This document shows, in pieces, positions 6,813 through 45,703 of a stretch of 64,000 bases of DNA. Each line of letters opens with the position of its first letter. The stretch's first letter is position 1. The notes beneath the pieces were generated by a model that did no database searches, was not told the origin of the DNA, and saw nothing but the letters and a program-made list of their open reading frames with translations. This DNA comes from Vicugna vicugna (Eukaryota): positions 3,139,003 through 3,203,002 of the forward strand of contig MU058065.1 of the NCBI GenBank assembly GCA_013265495.1, in the 5' to 3' direction. Position numbers and translations under genes: made by a program.

Positions 6813-9636
6813 GAACATCTGACCCTGTCTATTGTTGTGTCGATAGCTGATGGGAGACATGGCACTGCCTCAGATACACCAGCCAGAAAGGGCAACTCCC
6901 TCGTGTACTGCTTCTTGAACAACCGCCCAGGATTTAGAGCAATCTAGAACAATCACTCTTAGGTCATAACTCAGCAAGTTGTCCAACTTCTCCACTACAC
7001 TGGGATTAGAGAAAAGCAAATTCAAAAGAAATTATTCCCATAAAAATGGTGGTGAAGGACTGACAGGTATTGTGTTCTTCCCTAAGACCAACTGTTAATA
7101 GTAATAACATCCTTCATAAGGAAGAAAAATACAGCATAAGTGCCAGAAAATTAAATCTGTAAAATCAACCCTCATATAAAAGTCACTTGTATCCTGTTTT
7201 AAATCCAGTAGGGGAGGAAAAGGAGGCCCTAAAACAAACACATCATTGTCATTTTTAATTTATTCGCTCTGTTCTACCCAAACTGTACCACGGGGTCTGA
7301 GAAAAACGCACCATTCTTAGGTTAGGGAATATTAGCATTAATTCTGTCTTTATGTCTTGTATGTTACTGTGTCCAAAACATTTTCTTGCTGAGGTTCACC
7401 CCAAATGTCATAATATTGCCCATGATCAGGATCTTGCAAAATAATTTAGGCTGATACATCTATTACAGACAAAATTGATATGGGAAAACATTAAATTAAA
7501 AAGGAACTTTTTTTAAAATATAATTTTGTTATGCTTAGAAGAAAAACTAGAAGGAAGATATAAAAATATATATCAAAGTCTTAGTAGTGATTACCTTTAG
7601 GGAGTAAGAATAGCATAGCTTTTATTTCAGTTACCTGCATTCTATACTCAGCATAATTTTTTCTATCATCCTGAGAAATAATAGTGATTCTATTTCAGAA
7701 AATAGGTAAGAAAGCTAAAAAAAAAAAAAAAGAAAGAAAGAAAGAAAAAGTAAGCTGATAGATAGAGATATCCAGTAAATTGAGACGAAATCATGATTTC
7801 TAGTACAAACGGTCTCAATACAAAACTGAATTTCCCTTCCGATTCCTCTACGTCAAAGTGTGTAGTCATGCATAGAAAAAATTACACAGCTACGCAAAGC
7901 ACAATGACTGATTTCTTGTTGTTATTTATTAGGAGTGGTTTCGAGAATTCAATTTACTTGCATTCTGATATACAACTAATATAACTGACAGCTGAGCAAT
8001 TCTCAAAATTAAAAGCAATCAAACAAACAAATCAAAGAGCATTTCTCAGAAATGTTTTCTTCACATTGCCTCATGCAGCAAAGTTCCTTAGTGTTTTAAA
8101 TTTCCTAGTTGCATATTAAAATTTCAGTGTTTGGTATTCCAGACTATCCATATTCTGATTATTTTCTCAGGTAAAAGAAACAGAGTTTATCTGAAGATTA
8201 TTTTTTCACTAACAGTAGCCCCAGTTTTGTCTCCTTGGTTAATATTCTTATTCTACAGTCACCTCCTAGGGTTCTAGAAGAATAGATGCTTAAAAGAAAG
8301 AAATTTTTATGACTTCAGGGGAAAATGTTTACTAAAATTAAAATTACCTTTGGAGTGGCTGTGGCTTAAATGCAGTGAGAATATATATCTGATTATTTAT
8401 GTTTGGCTTGGGAAGCAACAGTGCCACATTCTTCTTTGCCCTATAAACTAGAGTTTGTCTGTTCACAGGCACCATTAGGTCCTTGGTTTACTCTGTAGCT
8501 GTTGGGCTCCCACTTTATACCTGGCCCTGGGAAAAGAGTTGTGAGCAAAACTCTCCAGGGTTCCCTGTCTTTGAAGCAGACCATCCACAGACTCTCAAGT
8601 CCAACTCCTTTCTTTGAAACTGCTGGGACATAGACTCTGAGTCAGCACCAGGTGCCCAGCCTTCAAGTCAAGGGCTGGGAGGCAGGTGAGGGGATCCTCT
8701 CTGATGCTTCTGGAGCCCAAGCACTGGCTATGGGAGAAGCTCTGCTTTGGGGAGAAGGGGCCCTGCGTTGGGACTGATTTGCTAGTTTATCTCCATTTAT
8801 CTGAGCACATGCAAGAATCCCAAGGAGGAGATTTGGAGAGGACAGGTACCAGTCCCACACTCATCCTCTAACTGCTACCGGCGACATCTCCACTACTGCC
8901 TTTCCTGGTGTTTAACTTTGCTTCTGCTGAATCAAAGGCTTTAAAAGGGCCAAGACTGTGCCTCACGTTCCTTTATATTCCCCTAAAGAGCTTACTCAGT
9001 ACACAGCTTTCACATAACAGAGGTACAAAGAATGTTTGTCTATATGATTTTCCTTCTTTCAGGAAGATAAAAGCCATGTGCCAAGCATGATTAGCCAATT
9101 GTATGAGCCAAGGGGCAGAGTTGTACAGATAAGTCTAAGCAGACTTAGATCGCAGCCCTATTGGATTTGACTGCCTGTGCATTGAATTGTACTTGACCTC
9201 CACTCTGCTCCTCTCTCATCACCTGTGCCCCTACCACCACCCACCATCTCACCAGGACTAAGAAAATAGTACAGGGCTGAATTTCCACGTTAGATCCTTT
9301 ATAACCAGCTTATTGTACTCTTAAATATATAACATTTAAGAAAACATTATTTCTCTTTAAACAAATTTCTTAACCCTTCCTTGAGTGATGAAAATAATTT
9401 CTCTTGGTTAAAGCAACAAAAACCTTCAAGAAAGTAATCAAAAAATTTCATGCAAGTAATAACTTATAACCTATAAGCAATGTCTTCCCTATTAAGAACA
9501 AAATCATTTGGTGTAGCAAAAGGATTTCCAAAGTTATATTCATGTTGTCAGGCAACAAAATGAAGTAACATTTTAATAAGTAAATCACTTTAAGATATAG
9601 CAGAATGATTATCTAAGTTTAGAAATGGGAAACCCT

Positions 9637-10846
9637 ACCATAAATCTCCTAGAAAAGAACATAGGGAAAACACTTTCTGGCATAAATTGTAGCAATGTTC
9701 TCCTAGGTCAGTCTACCAAGGCAATAGAAATAAAAGCACAAATAAACAAATGGGACCTAATTAAACTTTTAAGCTTTTGCATAGCAAAGGAAACCATAAA
9801 CAAAAGAAAAGACAACCTATGGACTAGGAGAAAATATTTGCAAATGATGTGATGGAACAAGGGCTTAAATTCCAGAATATATAAACAGCTCACACAATTC
9901 GAACAAACAACCCAATCAGAAAATAGGCAGAAGACCTAAACAAACATTTCTCCAATGAAGACATGCAGATGGCCAATAGGCACATGAAAAGATGTTCAAC
10001 ATCACATCTTTTCCTTAACAGAGAAATGCAAATCAAAACTACAATGAGGTATCACCTCACATGAGTCAGAATAGCCATCATTAAAAGGTCCACATACAAT
10101 AAATGCTGGAGAGGGTGTGGAGAAAAGGTAACCCTTCTACGTTGTTGGTGGGAATGTAATTTGGTGCAACCACTATGGAAATCAGTACAGAGATTTCTTG
10201 AAAAACTAAAAATAGAGTTACCATATGATCCATCGATCCCATTCTTGGGCATATATCTGGAGAAAACTTCAACTTGAAAAGATACATGCACCTTAATGTT
10301 CATAGCAGCACTATTTACAATAGCCAAGACATAGAAGCAACCTAAATGTCCACTGACAGATGATTGCATAAAGAAGTTGTGGTATATCTATCCAATGGAA
10401 TACTACTCAGCCATAAAAATGAATGAAATAATGGCATTTGCAGCAACGTGGTTGGACCTAGAGATTATCATACTAAGTGAAGTAAGTCAGACAGAGAAAG
10501 ACAAATATTATATGATATTACTTATACATGTTATCTAAAAAATGATGCAAATGAATTTATTTACAAAACAGAAATAGACTGACAGACATAGAAAACAAAC
10601 TATAGTTGCCAAAGGGGGAAGGGAAGAGAGGGATAAATTAAAGGTGTGGAATTAGCAGATACAAAATACTATACATAGAATAGATGAACAAGGTCCTACT
10701 GTATGGCACAGGGAACTATATTCAATAGCTTGAAATAACTTAAAATGAAAAGAATACATATATATGTATATAGTTGAATCACTATGCTGCATACCAGAAA
10801 CTAACACAACATTGTAAATCAACTCTACTCCAAATAAAAAAAAAAA
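9637..10846 (+). mobile_element. 5'-truncated L1 (ORF2 C-terminus + 3' UTR + polyA), followed by a candidate 3' transduction
   Basis: ORF2 remnant 'INKWDLIKLLSFCIAKETINK'; complete 3' UTR; polyA at 10836-10846. Confidence 0.95.
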
Positions 10847-26219: not shown

Positions 26220-26843
26220 TGATGCAGGAATACAGATGTGGGGCATGAGAAGGGCTGTGTCCCGGGTCTCGGTTGAGCCCCTGGGATGTGCCCCGTCAAG
26301 TGTGGGTCCTTGGCTTCATGCAGGAAAGAATTCAGGAGCTAGCCACAGTTGAGTGAAGGTAGGTTTATCCAGAGAGATACACTGAAAGGCAAGAGAAAGG
26401 CCACAAAGTGTGGGGATTGGGTGCTCAGGTTAAAAGTAGGTACACATTCCATACACAGAATGCGTGTCAGTCTCCGAAGAGGGAGGGAGAGAGGGGCGGC
26501 CGCGAGGCGCCATGTTGCTGGTTTTTATGGGCTTGGTGTCTTCACATGCTAATAAGTGGAAGGACCAGTCTAAGGGGAAGGGGCTGGCATTCCCAGGAAG
26601 TTGGCCATTTTCCATTTTTGACCTTTTGTGGCTAGCCTTGGGATTGCCATGGTGCCTGTGGGCGTGTTATTCACCATGTTAATACATTACAATGGGCATA
26701 TAATGAAGCTCAAGATCTACTAGAAGTTGAATCTCTCAGCATCCTGAGCCTCAAGGCCTACTGGGGGTTGAATCTTTCACCATTTTGATGTTGATTGCTG
26801 TAGCATTCCTTAAATGGCTATGCCCTACCCCCTTCCTGTCTCA
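26220..26843 (-). mobile_element. Young ERV solo LTR, family A, copy 1
   Basis: tgatgcagg...cctgtctca ends; homologous to 35883-36473, 37526-38162 and 41504-42101; no TSD (tact vs gttt). Confidence 0.85.
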
Positions 26844-33172: not shown

Positions 33173-33320
33173 TTTTTGTTTTTTGGGGAGTAGAGGAAGT
33201 AATTAAGTTTGTTTGTTTGTTTATTTATTTATTTATTTTGGGGGGAGAGACTGGGGACTGAACCCAGGACCTTGTGCATGCTAAGCATGTGCTCTACCAC
33301 TTGAGCTATACCCTCCCCCA
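33173..33320 (-). mobile_element. Vic-1-type SINE
   Basis: 'gaacccaggaccttgtgcatgctaagcatgtgctctaccacttgagctatacc'; TSD about ttaatcaagtta/ttaattaaatta. Confidence 0.9.
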
Positions 33321-34276
33321 GTTAATTAAATTAAAAAAAAAGTAGCAAAAGGGACTGAGCCCTTTGGCTCAACCCCTCACTGGGGACCCCAAAGCCTTTT
33401 ATACAAAAGTGGATATAATGGCCCCGGGATAAAAAGAAAAGTTTCTGGGAGTCCTTGTAAGAATAAGACTTATGGATGAGGTCTTATTGGAGGCTAAAAT
33501 TAAAGATGTAAGACTTGATAAAATTGAGATGAAAGTTTATAAACATTGGTATATTTGAATGGACTTTATTTAAGATAGTTACAGCTCTTTTGCCTAATTA
33601 TATCGTGGAATAGACATTATGTCTCACCAGGGAATGCCTCCCCTGCCTGGTATTATAAGACAGAGAATATAAATCTGCCCCTTAAGCAATGTTAATTAAA
33701 CATAAACACACACAACAAAAATAGAGTTACCTAAGCCCACACAATATAAACTAAAAATTAGCAGCTAACATTCAGGGGCTAATAAAAACAATAATGGAGA
33801 TTTTTTTGCCCCCTCGGGTAAAAATGATCAGGGTCTAACTTGCACACTCAGAAAGAAGGCCTTTGTTGAATGCCTTGTGCAATTTGAAAACATGATAAAT
33901 TGAACCCTAAAGTTCTAGAATATGGCATGATTTTCAGTTTAGTCAGAAATCTTCTCACAGATACAAAAAGTTTTTTTGAGAAAACGTAGTTGAGCGAATC
34001 AATCTTTTGATATCATTCAGGCATCAGAACAGTTCTTTGGGGAATTAAGAGCAATTGTCTTTGTCTTGCAAATCTCTACAAATCAGAAATGTAAATACAG
34101 CTCACGACTTGAGACTGAGCCTAAGTAGCGCAATCAGGCAGAACCTGAAACCAAGAAAAAAAAAATAAAAGGTGGGGAGAAGAGGCTTTTTTAAACTAAA
34201 ACTGCTGGAAGGCTCTCTCACCCAAAATTTAACTCACAGCCTCCTTAAGTGTTTATCAATGACAAACACAAATCTT

Positions 34277-35612
34277 CTTCTTTTTTTTTTTACAATAAAT
34301 ATGTATTTATTGGATAATATCTCAATAAAGCTAGAGGCAGAAATGAACACTGTGTAAATAAGCTGTATTTTATTTGCATAAAACATTACTTTCCAATTAT
34401 TTTTATGTTTTAAATGAGTTCCTTTTTTTGTACAATAAAAGTGTCATCCACAATTAGTCATATATATATGACTAATACATATTGTTATATTAGTCAAATA
34501 GGCTGTTGAGTGTACATTATATATAGAAGCACTGCTTGAAAATTATACTTAATTTTGAAACTCTTTAGATATTATCATTAAATTCAGAAATCAGCCTGGA
34601 ATATTTAAAATATCATATCTATTATTCAGAGTTTCTTAAAGAAAGACTTAATAATAAAGAAGATGTAAAAACATAAAAGAAGAAATACAATGTCATTACA
34701 GTTAACCCTTGAACAATGAGGCAGTTAGGGGTACTGATCCTTCTCACATATAAATGATATCATATGGTATTTTCTTTCTCTTTCTGTCTTACTTCATTTA
34801 GAATGACAATCTCCTGGTCCATCTGTGTTGCTGCAAATGGCATTATTTTATCTTTTTTATGGCTGAGTAGTATTCCATTGTATAAATATGCCACAACTTC
34901 CCTATCCAGTCATCCACCAATGGAAACTTAGGTTGCTTCCATGTCTTGGCCATCGCAAACAGTGCTGCTGTAAACATTGGAGTGCATGTATCTTCCTGAA
35001 CCAAGTTTCCCTCTGGATATATGCCCAGGAGTGGGATTGCTGGAGCATATGGTAAGTCTATTTTTAGTCTTTTGAGGAATCTCCATACTGTCTTCCATAA
35101 TGGCTTCACCAAACTGCATTCCCACCAGCAGTGTAGGAGGGCTCCCTTTTCTCCACACCCTCCCCAGCATTTATCACTTGTGGACTTTTGAATGATGGCC
35201 ATTCTGACTGGTGTGAAGTGATACTTCACTGTAGTTTTGATTTGCATTTCTCTGATAATTAGCAACATGGAGCATTTTTTTCATGTCCCTATTGGCCATT
35301 TGCATGTCTTCATTGGTGAATTGCTTGTTTAGATCTTCTGCTGATTTTTGGATTGGGTTGTTTGTTTTTTTTGTTATAGTTGTATGAGCTGTTTATATAT
35401 TCTGGAAATTAAGCCCTTGTCAGTCTCATCTTTTGCAAATATTTTCTCCCATTCTGTAGGTTGTGTTTTTGTTTTGCTTATGGTTTCCTTTGCTATGCAA
35501 AAGCTTGTAAGTTTAATTAGGTTCCATTGGTCTGTTTTTGCTTTTATTTCTATTGCTTGGGTAGATTGCCCTAGAAGAACATTGCTAAAATTTATGTCAG
35601 ATAATGTTTAAG
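34277..35612 (-). mobile_element. L1 insertion: ORF2 C-terminus (34746-35612) plus about 470 bp of non-L1 sequence and polyA
   Basis: ORF 34843-35268 is the L1 ORF2 zinc-knuckle region (HCWWEC...[10 protein letters not shown]); TSD gacaaacacaaatctt (34261-34276) / gacatacacaaatctt (35613-35628). Confidence 0.9.
34699..34745 (+). mobile_element. Tigger terminal fragment inside the transduced segment
   Basis: TA + 'cagttaacccttgaacaa' Tigger TIR. Confidence 0.55.
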
Positions 35613-35740
35613 GACATACACAAATCTTAAAAGTCTTTTCCACAAAAAGTAAAGTCTTTGTCATTTGAGCAAATGAATTTAACGTATTCCCACTGTTACT
35701 TATAAACTAGTAAGTTTATATTGTAATGCCTGATTCGTGA

Positions 35741-36973
35741 CGTAAGCAGATAGGGTAGGGGGTCCCCAGGGGAAGAGAACCAGACATAGCATCCTTGACA
35801 TTGGAGAAGCCATTTTGGCCTAAGCCATTTTGTGATCTAAGCCTGGCCACAATGCTTGCTCTTGCAGAAACATAGGTCTCAGTGATGCAGGAAAACAGAT
35901 GTGGGGCATGAGGAGGGCCAAGTCCCAGGTCTCGGTTGAGCCCCTGGGACATGCCCTGCCAAGTGTGGGTCCTTGGCTTCACGCAGGAAAGAATTCAAAT
36001 GTGAGCCACCATTGAGTAAAGGTAGATTTATTTAGAGAGATACACACTGCATAGAGTGTAAGGCAAGAGAAATGAAGGGAAAGAGGTGTGGGAATTGGGT
36101 GCTCAGGTTAAAGTAAATGTAGGTACACACTCCATAGACAGAATGTGGGCCGTCTCCAAAGGGGAGAGAGCGAAAAGGGCCACTAGGCATGGTGTTGTCA
36201 CTTTTATGGGCTCAGAAGCTTCACACACCTACAGGTGGGATCAATCCAACTGCCCTGGATTCTTTGGCCTTTTGAAGTTAGCCTTGGGGCTGTCATGATG
36301 CCTGCAAGCATGTTATTTGATCAGGCTGTTACAATGGGCATATGATGAAGATTACGGTCCACTAGAAGTTAAACTTCTTAATCCTCAAGGCCAGCTAGGA
36401 GATGAATGCTCCACCATTTTGGGTGCTGTCATTCCTTGAGTAGCTGTGCCCTGCCCCCTTCCCTCCTGTCTCATTAGTAGTTGATCACTTAAAGGGAACA
36501 AAAGAAGGTAAAAACAAAAACTATTGCCAGGCCAAGGAAATTACGTAACAATATCAGAGATAATAAAGATTCCTGGTCCTGTGTCGAAGGTAAAGATTAG
36601 CCTTAAGCACATTCTTGAACTGTTTTGCAAGATCCCAAACCCCTCAAGCCACCAGACTAACTGCAACTTTAAGAAATGGTGATACTCATCTTTTACTGAC
36701 CCTCCATGACTTCAATCAACCAAAGCCTGGACTCTCAACCTTTGCTCCAATTCTGTGCTGAATTCTTCTCTTCTCAAGCCCCCCATGAATATGCATGCAC
36801 CCTTAGCTTAAAAGTTCTCCAATTTTGCTGCTCTGGGAGACACCGCTTTGGGAAATATTCCAGCTGTTTTCTTTACTTGTTGCAAATCATGAAATTCTTC
36901 TTTCTCCTGCTCTTTGACTTGCTTGCCTTTTGGCTCAACTCCTACCAAGAGAGGAACAGAGTTATGGGTAACA
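35741..36973 (+). mobile_element. ERV solo LTR (family C) inserted in the ERV internal region and hosting a family A LTR
   Basis: (c)gtaagc...ggtaaca ends; degenerate TSD gtga/ataa. Confidence 0.7.
35883..36473 (-). mobile_element. Family A solo LTR, copy 2
   Basis: tgatgcagg...tgtctca; TSD tcag/ttag. Confidence 0.9.
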
Positions 36974-37525: not shown

Positions 37526-38162
37526 TGATGCAGGAAAACAGATGTGGGGCGTGAGGAGGGCCGTGTCCCAGGTCTTGGTTGAGCCCCTGGGACGTGACTT
37601 GCCAAGTGTGGATCCTTGGCTTCATACAGGAAAGAATTCAAGTGCAAGCCACCACTGAGTAAAGATAGATTTATTTAGAGAGAGACACACTGCATAGAGT
37701 ACAAGGCAAGAGAAAGGCAAGGAAAGAGGTGTGGGAATTAGGTGCTCAGGTTAAAGTAAAAGTAGGTGCACATTCCACAGACAGAGTGCAGACTGTCTCC
37801 AAAGGGGAGAGAGTGAAAAGGGCCACTAGGTGTGGTGTTGCCATGTTTTATGGTCTCAGTAGCTTCACACACCTACAGGTGGGATCAATCCAACCGCCCT
37901 GGGAAAGGGGCTGGGATTCCCAGGGACTGGGCCACTGTCCATTCTTTGGCCTTTTGTGGTTAGCCTTGGGGCTGTCATGGCACCTGTAGGCGTATTATTC
38001 GATCATGCTGTTACAGTGAGCATATAATGAAGATCAAGGTCTACTAGAAGTTAAACCTCTTAATCCTCAACACCAACTAAGAAGTGAATCTTCCACCATT
38101 TTGGAGTTAAATTGCTGTCATTCCTTGATTGGCTGCACCCTGTGCCCTTCCATCTTGTCTCA
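37526..38162 (-). mobile_element. Family A solo LTR, copy 3
   Basis: tgatgcagg...tgtctca; TSD tatc/catc. Confidence 0.9.
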
Positions 38163-41503: not shown

Positions 41504-42101
41504 TGAGACAGGAGGGAAGAGGGCAGGGCACAGCCCATCAAGGAATGACAGCAATTTAACTCCAAAATGGTGGAAGATTCACTTCTTAGTTGGTGTTGAG
41601 GATTAAGAGGTTTAACTTCTAGTAGAACTTGATCTTCATTATATGCTCATTGTAACAGCATGATCAAATAATACGCCTACAGGTGCCATGACAGCCCTAA
41701 GGCCAACCACAAAAGGCCAAAGAATCCAGGGCAGTTGGATTGATTCCACCTGTAGGTGTGTGAAGCTACTGACACCATAAAACATGGCAACACCATGCCT
41801 AGTGGCCATTTCACTCTTTCCCCTTTGGAGATGGCCCGCACTCTGTCTATGGAGTGTGCACCTACTTTTACTTTAACCTGAGCACCCAATTCCCACACCT
41901 CTTTCCTTTCATTTCTCTTGCCTTACACTCTATGAAGTGTGTATCTCTCTAAATAAATCTACCTTAACTCAAAGGTGGCTCACACTTGAATTCTTTCCTG
42001 TGTGAAGCCAAGGACCGACACTCGGTAGGGCACGTCCCAGGGGCTCAACCGAGACCTGGGACTCGGCCCTCCTCAAGCCCCAAATCCGCTTTCCTGCATT
42101 A
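41504..42101 (+). mobile_element. Family A solo LTR, copy 4
   Basis: tgagacagg...ctgcatta; reverse complement of copies 1-3; AATAAA at about 41952. Confidence 0.9.
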
Positions 42102-44649: not shown

Positions 44650-44806
44650 TATTATTTAATATTTTATTTATTTAATTATTTTATTTTGGCCGGGGCAGGG
44701 GGAGGTAATTAGGTTTGTTTATTTTTAGAGGAGGTGCTGGGGATTGAACACAAGACCTCGTGCGTGCTAAGCATGCGCTCTACCACTTGAGCTATACCCT
44801 CCCCCA
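44650..44806 (-). mobile_element. Vic-1-type SINE
   Basis: TSD aatctattt at 44641-44649 and 44807-44815. Confidence 0.9.
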
Positions 44807-45703
44807 AATCTATTTAAGAATATTACCATTAAATCCTTGGCTTCTTATGCAACAGAATGTGATTTGTTGAGGGCCAGTGATCAGTTATGTTCCTGACTAC
44901 TATTGTGTTATTTTAGATTTTCAATTAATTTCATCTTTCAAGCTTTAGATAAATGGATTCTGTGGTTAGTTCTAATTGACCAATGCTTAGAAGCTTCAGT
45001 TGGCTTTATTATGAATAACGATGTTACCATTTTAAACTCTGGAGTCTGTGGGTCTAGAATTGCTCAGCCTCAGCACTGTTGCCTTTATGTGCTGGATCTT
45101 CCTTTCTTGGGGACAGGGGCTGTCCTGTGTGTTCTGAAGATGTTGAGCAGTATTCCCAGCCTCTACCAACGAGGAGCCAGGAACATCCCCCCTCCCAACT
45201 CCCCCTAGGTGTGGCGACCAAAACTACACAAGACCTCGTGCGTGCTAAGAATGCGCTCTACCACTTGAGCTATACCCTCCCCCAAATCTATTTAAGAATA
45301 TTACCATTAAATCCTTGGCTTCTTATGCAACAGAATGTGATTTGTTGAGGGCCAGTGATCAGTTATGTTCCTGACTACTATTGTGTTATTTTAGATTTTC
45401 AATTAATTTCATCTTTCAAGCTTTAGATAAATGGATTCTGTGGTTAGTTCTAATTGACCAATGCTTAGAAGCTTCAGTTGGCTTTATTATGAATAACGAT
45501 GTTACCATTTTAAACTCTGGAGTCTGTGGGTCTAGAATTGCTCAGCCTCAGCACTGTTGCCTTTATGTGCTGGATCTTCCTTTCTTGGGGACAGGGGCTG
45601 TCCTGTGTGTTCTGAAGATGTTGAGCAGTATTCCCAGCCTCTACCAACGAGGAGCCAGGAACATCCCCCCTCCCAACTCCCCCTAGGTGTGGCGACCAAA
45701 ACT
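44748..45703 (+). repeat. Direct tandem duplication, 2 x 478 bp
   Basis: 44748-45225 equals 45226-45703 except for one visible substitution (ctaagcatg/ctaagaatg); the ORFs at 44903 and 45381 are identical. Confidence 0.97.

What the first reader, a model, noticed from the sequence alone, without database searches (positions are those of the whole stretch)
34261..35628. L1 insertion carrying about 470 bp of non-L1 DNA that looks like the 3' end of a cellular gene
Seen: a 16-bp TSD (gacaaacacaaatctt 34261-34276 / gacatacacaaatctt 35613-35628, one mismatch) at a TTTT/AA endonuclease-type site brackets one minus-strand unit. The unit is L1 ORF2 end plus a partial 3' UTR (35612-34746), then a Tigger end and about 400 bp of AT-rich unique DNA, then AATAAA (34311-34306), then polyA (34291-34277). 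The L1's own terminal 3' UTR and tail are missing at the junction. On the + strand the passenger reads like an mRNA terminus (TGTAAATA, 'ttttgtacAATAAAagtg' at 34434). Inference: either a 3' transduction from an L1 lying convergent to a gene's 3' end followed by an internal deletion, or an RT template-switch chimera. Either way cellular sequence was moved into an ERV.
Basis: partly seen in the sequence, partly recalled or inferred. Interest (0 to 1): 0.7.

Follow-up and report, generated by a model that had tools for sequence, protein, structure and literature searches.

The report
Old L1 insertion carrying flank DNA
A single old LINE-1 copy-and-paste event put the tail end of a LINE-1 gene plus about 450 bases of unrelated genomic DNA into a retrovirus-like repeat; this is a known kind of genome shuffling, the source of the extra DNA was not found, and nothing shows that it comes from a gene.

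Summary
The insertion is real: a 15/16 (or 17/19) target-site duplication, a TCTT/AA site, an A tail, and AATAAA 14 nt before it enclose L1 ORF2 DNA (35609-34744), a 45-bp repeat end and 405 bp of non-repetitive DNA. Two details were wrong: the L1 is cut in the last codons of ORF2, so it has no 3' UTR at all, and the nick site is TCTT/AA. The plus-strand 'mRNA end' is weak (AATAAA 4 vs 1.2 expected; the other motif p=0.14). In 3 of 3 DNA runs laid, one unbroken single-copy contig spans the passenger and no second full copy appears, so any source is at least 8-10% diverged and filtered out, or lost. The passenger is not part of an L1 or ERV family. One RNA-guess run holds a 97% version starting at the tail, probably the same insertion in a related species. 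Best reading: L1 read-through (3' transduction) that lost the L1 3' UTR, tail and adjoining flank in one deletion (50%). Rivals: retrocopy of a host RNA already holding the junction (25%), template switch (15%), repair or nested events (10%). Known kind; low interest.

The parts
34261..34276 (+). target-site duplication, copy next to the tail (34258-34276 if 19 bp)
34277..34291 (-). A tail (A11 then GAAG)
34306..34311 (-). AATAAA signal, 14 nt before the tail; part of a hairpin 34293-34312 that also gives AATAAA on the plus strand
34292..34696 (-). non-repetitive passenger, 23% G+C, no CpG, single-copy; source not found
34453..34476 (.). perfect 24-bp palindrome; run X19 differs at three letters of its left arm
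34697..34743 (+). TA plus 45 bp of the end of a dispersed repeat (Tigger2/MER8-type DNA transposon end by recall); cut off at the L1 junction
   Evidence: name recalled
34744..35609 (-). 5'-truncated L1, last 866 bp of ORF2, broken by frameshifts, cut two codons before the ORF2 stop; whole 3' UTR and L1 tail absent
35610..35612 (-). three letters: extension of the TSD or untemplated letters at the 5' junction
35613..35628 (+). target-site duplication, copy next to the L1 5' end; followed by AAAA, giving TCTT/AA
33330..34260 (.). left flank: multi-copy repeat (for 34000-34249, paralogues 83-90% alike); ERV1 internal region by recall
   Evidence: no Pfam hit
35629..35737 (.). right flank, taken to continue the same repeat, then interrupted by LTR-like copies
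   Evidence: continuity across the site inferred, not shown

Best explanation
One target-primed reverse transcription event copied a polyadenylated RNA that began in an L1 and ran on into the DNA downstream of it (a partnered 3' transduction). The RNA ended at the AATAAA now at 34311-34306; reverse transcription stopped at 35609. A single deletion joined the end of ORF2 to the last 45 bp of an old DNA transposon, removing the L1 3' UTR (about 300 bp), its tail and the flank between. The deletion happened at the source L1, during copying, or after insertion; these cannot be told apart here. Shown: one TPRT insertion, its anatomy, single copy, not a repeat family. Inferred: read-through origin, the deletion, and the source. 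The copy is dead DNA; no function is indicated.
For: TSD, endonuclease-type site, tail and spaced signal. L1 is 5' of the unique DNA and in the same sense as the tail, the order of a partnered transduction (PMC13009371, passages); such events were 1,535 of about 6,400 somatic insertions in one tumour series (bioRxiv 2024.08.27.596794, passages). The L1 piece is no more decayed than its surroundings: 6 of 83 conserved residues changed against 12 of 83 in the L1 at 9668, no stop in 132 codons against 3, roughly 1-7% at DNA level, while the host repeat is about 7% per copy. So it could have been alive when the insertion was made.
Against: No source locus was found. The internal L1 tail typical of partnered transductions is absent, so an extra deletion must be assumed. 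An unbroken contig means no other locus shares a 30-mer with the passenger; a surviving source would pass that test with probability 0.002 at 6% divergence, 0.02 at 8%, 0.12 at 10%, 0.30 at 12%, which sits uneasily with the modest decay of the L1 piece unless the source was lost. The dating is rough.
Confidence: 0.5

Rival explanations
1. Retrocopy in trans. A host transcript (non-coding, intronic or antisense) crossed a locus where a 3'-deleted L1 fragment already abutted the transposon end; L1 proteins copied its last 1.3 kb. The L1 piece is cargo, not engine.
For: Explains the missing L1 3' end with no event at insertion; needs only the same TPRT marks. X19 record 16 starts in the T run and could be such a transcript.
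Against: The L1 piece is not an ancient fossil, which narrows the time for insertion, deletion and retrocopy in turn. No source seen. A 97% source cannot be in the three DNA runs because their contig is unbroken.
Confidence: 0.25
2. Template switch. L1 reverse transcriptase started on a polyadenylated host RNA (possibly antisense to a gene end), copied 452 nt, then jumped onto an L1 RNA at the end of ORF2.
For: Accounts for the sharp junction and absent 3' UTR in one step; LINE template switches are described (PMC2104539, passages). Plus-strand AATAAA count is mildly high (p 0.026).
Against: Described chimeras have the opposite order, non-L1 RNA 5' and L1 3' end at the tail (bioRxiv 2025.02.02.635956, Introduction). 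No stable fold at the junction (z -0.6). No parent RNA identified.
Confidence: 0.15
3. Two events. Either an ordinary L1 insertion whose 3' part was later replaced by a repair patch from elsewhere, or an orphan retrocopy later hit by an L1 and trimmed by a deletion.
For: Templated insertions in L1 exist (22 cases).
Against: The signal sits 14 nt before the tail, as for a cleaved RNA, not against it as in the L1 at 10830. L1 abuts the TSD within 3 letters; there is one TSD only. The templated insertions are mostly under 250 bp and from within 15 bp of the site.
Confidence: 0.1

Closest known systems
L1 partnered 3' transductions (PMC13009371, passages; bioRxiv 10.1101/2024.08.27.596794, passages; PMC3024322, passages)
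   Same: L1 5' of unique DNA, new A tail with a signal 10-30 nt upstream, one TSD around everything, 5' truncation.
   Different: The L1 3' UTR and internal tail are absent, and the source locus that confirms a transduction was not found.
Chimeric L1 insertions such as U6/L1 and mRNA/L1 (bioRxiv 10.1101/2025.02.02.635956, abstract and Introduction; PMC2104539, passages)
   Same: Two unrelated sequences joined directly inside one TSD.
   Different: Order is reversed: here L1 is the 5' part and is cut at both ends; the tail belongs to the non-L1 part.
5'-truncated retrocopies of host RNA made in trans (PMC2912911, passages)
   Same: TSD of 14-19 bp, endonuclease site, tail, 5' truncation.
   Different: No parent transcript or lost intron is shown; two thirds of the insert is L1.
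Spliced integrated retrotransposed elements (PMC5860796, passages)
   Same: An L1 insertion with an internal part missing.
   Different: Those deletions are in the 5' UTR/ORF1 at splice sites; here the gap is 3' and the L1 letters run through the only nearby GT.

Membership tests
L1-mediated (TPRT) insertion | TSD of about 7-20 bp around the whole insert | tested here: met
   15 of 16 or 17 of 19 letters
L1-mediated (TPRT) insertion | endonuclease-type target site | tested here: met
   TCTT/AA, one letter from TTTT/AA
L1-mediated (TPRT) insertion | A tail at the 3' end | tested here: met
   34291-34277
L1-mediated (TPRT) insertion | empty site with one copy of the TSD in paralogues or outgroups | tested here: inconclusive
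   listed paralogue pieces stop at 34249 or before; loose ends at the site not shown; one search found nothing
L1 partnered 3' transduction | L1 5' of unique DNA, same sense as the tail | tested here: met
L1 partnered 3' transduction | polyadenylation signal 10-30 nt before the new tail | tested here: met
   14 nt
L1 partnered 3' transduction | L1 3' end (3' UTR, usually its own tail) between L1 body and passenger | tested here: not met
   L1 ends at 34744 inside ORF2; so not filed as a canonical member
L1 partnered 3' transduction | source locus with the same flank downstream of an L1 | tested here: inconclusive
   no second full copy in 3 of 3 DNA runs; human-like contigs are dropped by the tool
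U6/L1-type template-switch or ligation chimera | non-L1 RNA 5', L1 3' end at the tail | tested here: not met
   order reversed
Processed pseudogene of a cellular mRNA | parent gene, sense copy ending at the gene's own polyadenylation site | tested here: inconclusive
   no parent found; the gene-like motifs are on the strand opposite to the tail and weak
SpIRE (spliced L1 insertion) | deletion bounded by splice donor and acceptor | tested here: inconclusive
   L1 letters continue through the GT at 34747-34746 to 34744; acceptor side unknown without a source
Part of an L1 or ERV family consensus | many copies in the genome | tested here: not met
   single-copy depth 17.4, 10.2, 12.4 over 34338-34649
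Tigger2/MER8-type DNA transposon end | match to the library model, TA target site | not testable with these tools
   TA present and the stretch is multi-copy; no library held; PMC9219625 supplement had no match; name recalled

The most novel reading that the evidence does not exclude
The source was a live L1 that had lost its whole 3' UTR: the junction leaves ORF2 almost complete (ending C-E-K-D-Q-Y-P-stop instead of C-G-I-stop) and removes the L1's own signal, so every transcript had to use the downstream AATAAA. This would be a natural L1 that swapped its 3' UTR for host DNA and still retrotransposed; the unexplained 50-bp piece at 34286-34337 seen in all three DNA runs could be a short sibling.
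Probability: 0.15. Interest if true: 0.42.

Novelty: new member of a known kind. Interest (0 to 1): 0.2.

Why it matters
Little as it stands: L1 transductions and composite retrocopies are common, and this copy is dead, single and old. It would matter modestly if the source showed an L1 that stayed mobile after replacing its 3' UTR with host DNA, or an L1-5'/host-RNA-3' template switch, the reverse of the usual chimera order. Neither is shown.

Tried and rejected
No genome is held for the window, so the direct source search could not be run. Earlier notes by sequence, place and words: nothing on this stretch. Pattern scans for the transposon end in metagenome, prokaryote and viral contigs: 0 matches each. 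Passenger 20-mer in metagenomes: 1 match, L001, chance (21 bp only). Right-junction 22-mer in prokaryote genomes: 0. Rfam: only a tRNA-like SINE and an L1-derived mir-562 hit below threshold. Protein search found no close L1 relative (best listed 77% among 120 shown), so the L1 could not be dated against its own subfamily. Pfam: 0 families for the flank remnant and for the L1 frame. No RNA holder on record is listed; this is not evidence on expression. Uneven spread of X19 differences (1 in 170 vs 9 in 214, p 0.048) falls to p 0.14 when clustered changes count once; not used. Junction fold unremarkable. A short shared run of letters between L1 and the transposon at the junction is plausible from recall only and was not tested. 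PMC8084336 was irrelevant. Supplements of PMC8605555 could not be read and might hold camelid repeat models; bioRxiv supplements are closed.

Full report
Setting. The window is mammalian, camelid-like by its tRNA-derived SINE and L1 type (recalled; Rfam tRNA hit at 33244-33315; earlier notes on this genome also say camelid). No whole genome is held.

Observation. The best direct-repeat pair around the insert is 34261-34276 / 35613-35628, 15 of 16 letters, with a chance of about 4e-5 after allowing 30x30 positions of slack. It extends to 17 of 19 if 34258-34260 and 35610-35612 are added, which fits L1 homology starting at 35609. The target reads TCTT/AA, not TTTT/AA. The tail is A11 plus GAAG; AATAAA lies 14 nt before it (chance about 0.04), the spacing of a cleaved and polyadenylated RNA (10-30 nt, PMC13009371 passages). 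TSD length is typical of L1 (peak 14-16 bp, PMC2912911 passages).

The L1 piece. It matches residues 1093-1237 of human ORF2p (E 1e-65) and the L1 at 9668-10526 at 81.6%. It ends at 34744. The other two L1 copies in the window stop two codons further on, and 11 of 120 listed homologues end in an ICG-like terminus, while this copy reads ...SFIC then EKDQYP-stop. The contigs agree: in X14 and X3 the record has 3 letters past 34770, in X5 3 letters are left at that end too, so it breaks at about 34773, just where a 30-mer lies wholly in L1. Decay is modest: at columns conserved in 117 homologues (3 of 120 dropped as odd top hits) it departs at 11 of 95, 6 of 83 and 0 of 42 (thresholds 85, 90, 95%), against 13, 12 and 3 for the 9.7 kb copy; 14 listed paralogue pieces of the host repeat differ by 14% on average, 7% per copy. 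This rough dating says the L1 was not an ancient fossil when it arrived.

The passenger. 34292-34696 is 23% G+C. From about 34697 depth rises to several copies, marking the end of a dispersed repeat behind a TA; the name Tigger2/MER8-type is recalled, and a published Tigger table had no match (PMC9219625 supplement). The plus-strand gene-end look is weak: AATAAA 4 vs 1.2 expected (p 0.026), TGTA-H-ATA 1 vs 0.15 (p 0.14) in 3000 shuffles. It is also the strand opposite to the tail, so a gene there would have been copied antisense.

Copy number and source. One search lists 24 runs: 18 hold all sampled words (organisms A-D; 13 are marked as possible sources of this DNA, including every such row of B, C and D; the 5 others are organism A, 2 studies). 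I laid 3 of these 18 (X14; X3 and X5 are possible sources) and 1 of the 2 RNA-guess rows (X19) on 34000-34770 at 80%. In 3 of 3 DNA runs one 699-nt contig covers 34076-34770 with 1 other letter and 1 gap, and depth over 34338-34649 is that contig alone. So the passenger is not part of a repeat family, and no full second copy was laid. The tool drops human-like contigs, so a long source contig could be hidden. But the unbroken contig is independent of that filter: it implies (inference from de Bruijn assembly) that no other locus shares a 30-mer with the passenger. Simulation gives that outcome with probability 0.002, 0.02, 0.12, 0.30, 0.50 at 6, 8, 10, 12, 14% divergence. The source is therefore old and hidden, or deleted, or absent from these individuals. 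Extra depth of about one copy over 34286-34337 in all three runs, and over about 34650-34701 in X14 only, is unresolved: the records were not listed, and a chance 50-bp match at 80% is not negligible (0.05 per window without gaps).

Run X19. One 388-nt record covers 34281-34664 with 10 other letters and 15 gap letters, starting in the T run; this accounts for its share of 0.31 (0.36 expected before insertions). A 97% paralogue cannot exist in the three DNA runs, so the simplest reading is the same insertion in a related species, which makes the event older than that split. Against this, another X19 record matches 34000-34085 with no difference (chance 0.11-0.21 at that divergence), and X19 does not bridge the tail to the flank, so a source transcript is not excluded. 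RNA is only a guess for this run; expression is not shown.

Flanks. The left flank is multi-copy with paralogues 83-90% alike; ERV1 internal region is my recall, with LTR-like repeats nearby and no Pfam hit. The empty site was not seen.

Mechanism. One TPRT event of a polyadenylated RNA is well supported. The order L1-then-unique-DNA-then-tail is that of a partnered 3' transduction, which is frequent (1,535 partnered events passages); one deletion then explains the junction (0.5). A trans retrocopy of a host RNA already holding the junction (0.25) differs only in which promoter drove it. A template switch (0.15) needs the reverse of the described order (Introduction of bioRxiv 2025.02.02.635956; PMC2104539 passages). 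Repair patch or nested events (0.1) fit the signal spacing and single TSD poorly. Splicing is unlikely because L1 letters run through the nearby GT (PMC5860796 passages). That the L1 3' UTR is dispensable in cell assays is recalled; a search for it gave one irrelevant paper. PMC3024322 (passages) states the rule used here: a transduction is confirmed only by its source locus. Searches showed no paper on this locus; PMC8605555 (passages) covers camelid repeats in general.

Verdict. A real, old, single composite L1-mediated insertion of a known kind. It works like a 3' transduction but is not filed as a canonical one, since the L1 3' end is missing and no source is known. The 'cellular gene end' is unsupported. 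Interest 0.2.

Noticed in passing
window 44748-45225 / 45226-45703: 478-bp tandem duplication at 99.8% identity: very recent duplication or assembly artefact.
   Followed up: no
window 34453-34476: Perfect 24-bp palindrome, 0 of 3000 shuffles reach it; run X19 differs at three letters of the left arm, so it may have been perfected by a local template-switch mutation in one lineage.
   Followed up: partly
window 34293-34312: Short hairpin that puts AATAAA on both strands at the 3' end of the insert.
   Followed up: partly
window 26220-26843, 35883-36473, 37526-38162, 41504-42099: Four copies of one LTR-like family, 70-88% alike, two inserted in the same ERV-like region and one inverted.
   Followed up: no
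window 9620-10846: An older 5'-truncated L1 whose 5' end lies within about 50 bp of the L1 position where the insertion's L1 begins; probably coincidence.
   Followed up: partly
protein P0032: A mammalian-type L1 ORF2 fragment named under a bacterial species by its source: likely host contamination of that assembly.
   Followed up: no
window 34286-34337: Extra depth of about one copy in 3 of 3 DNA runs: short sibling, piece of the source, or chance match; records not listed.
   Followed up: partly
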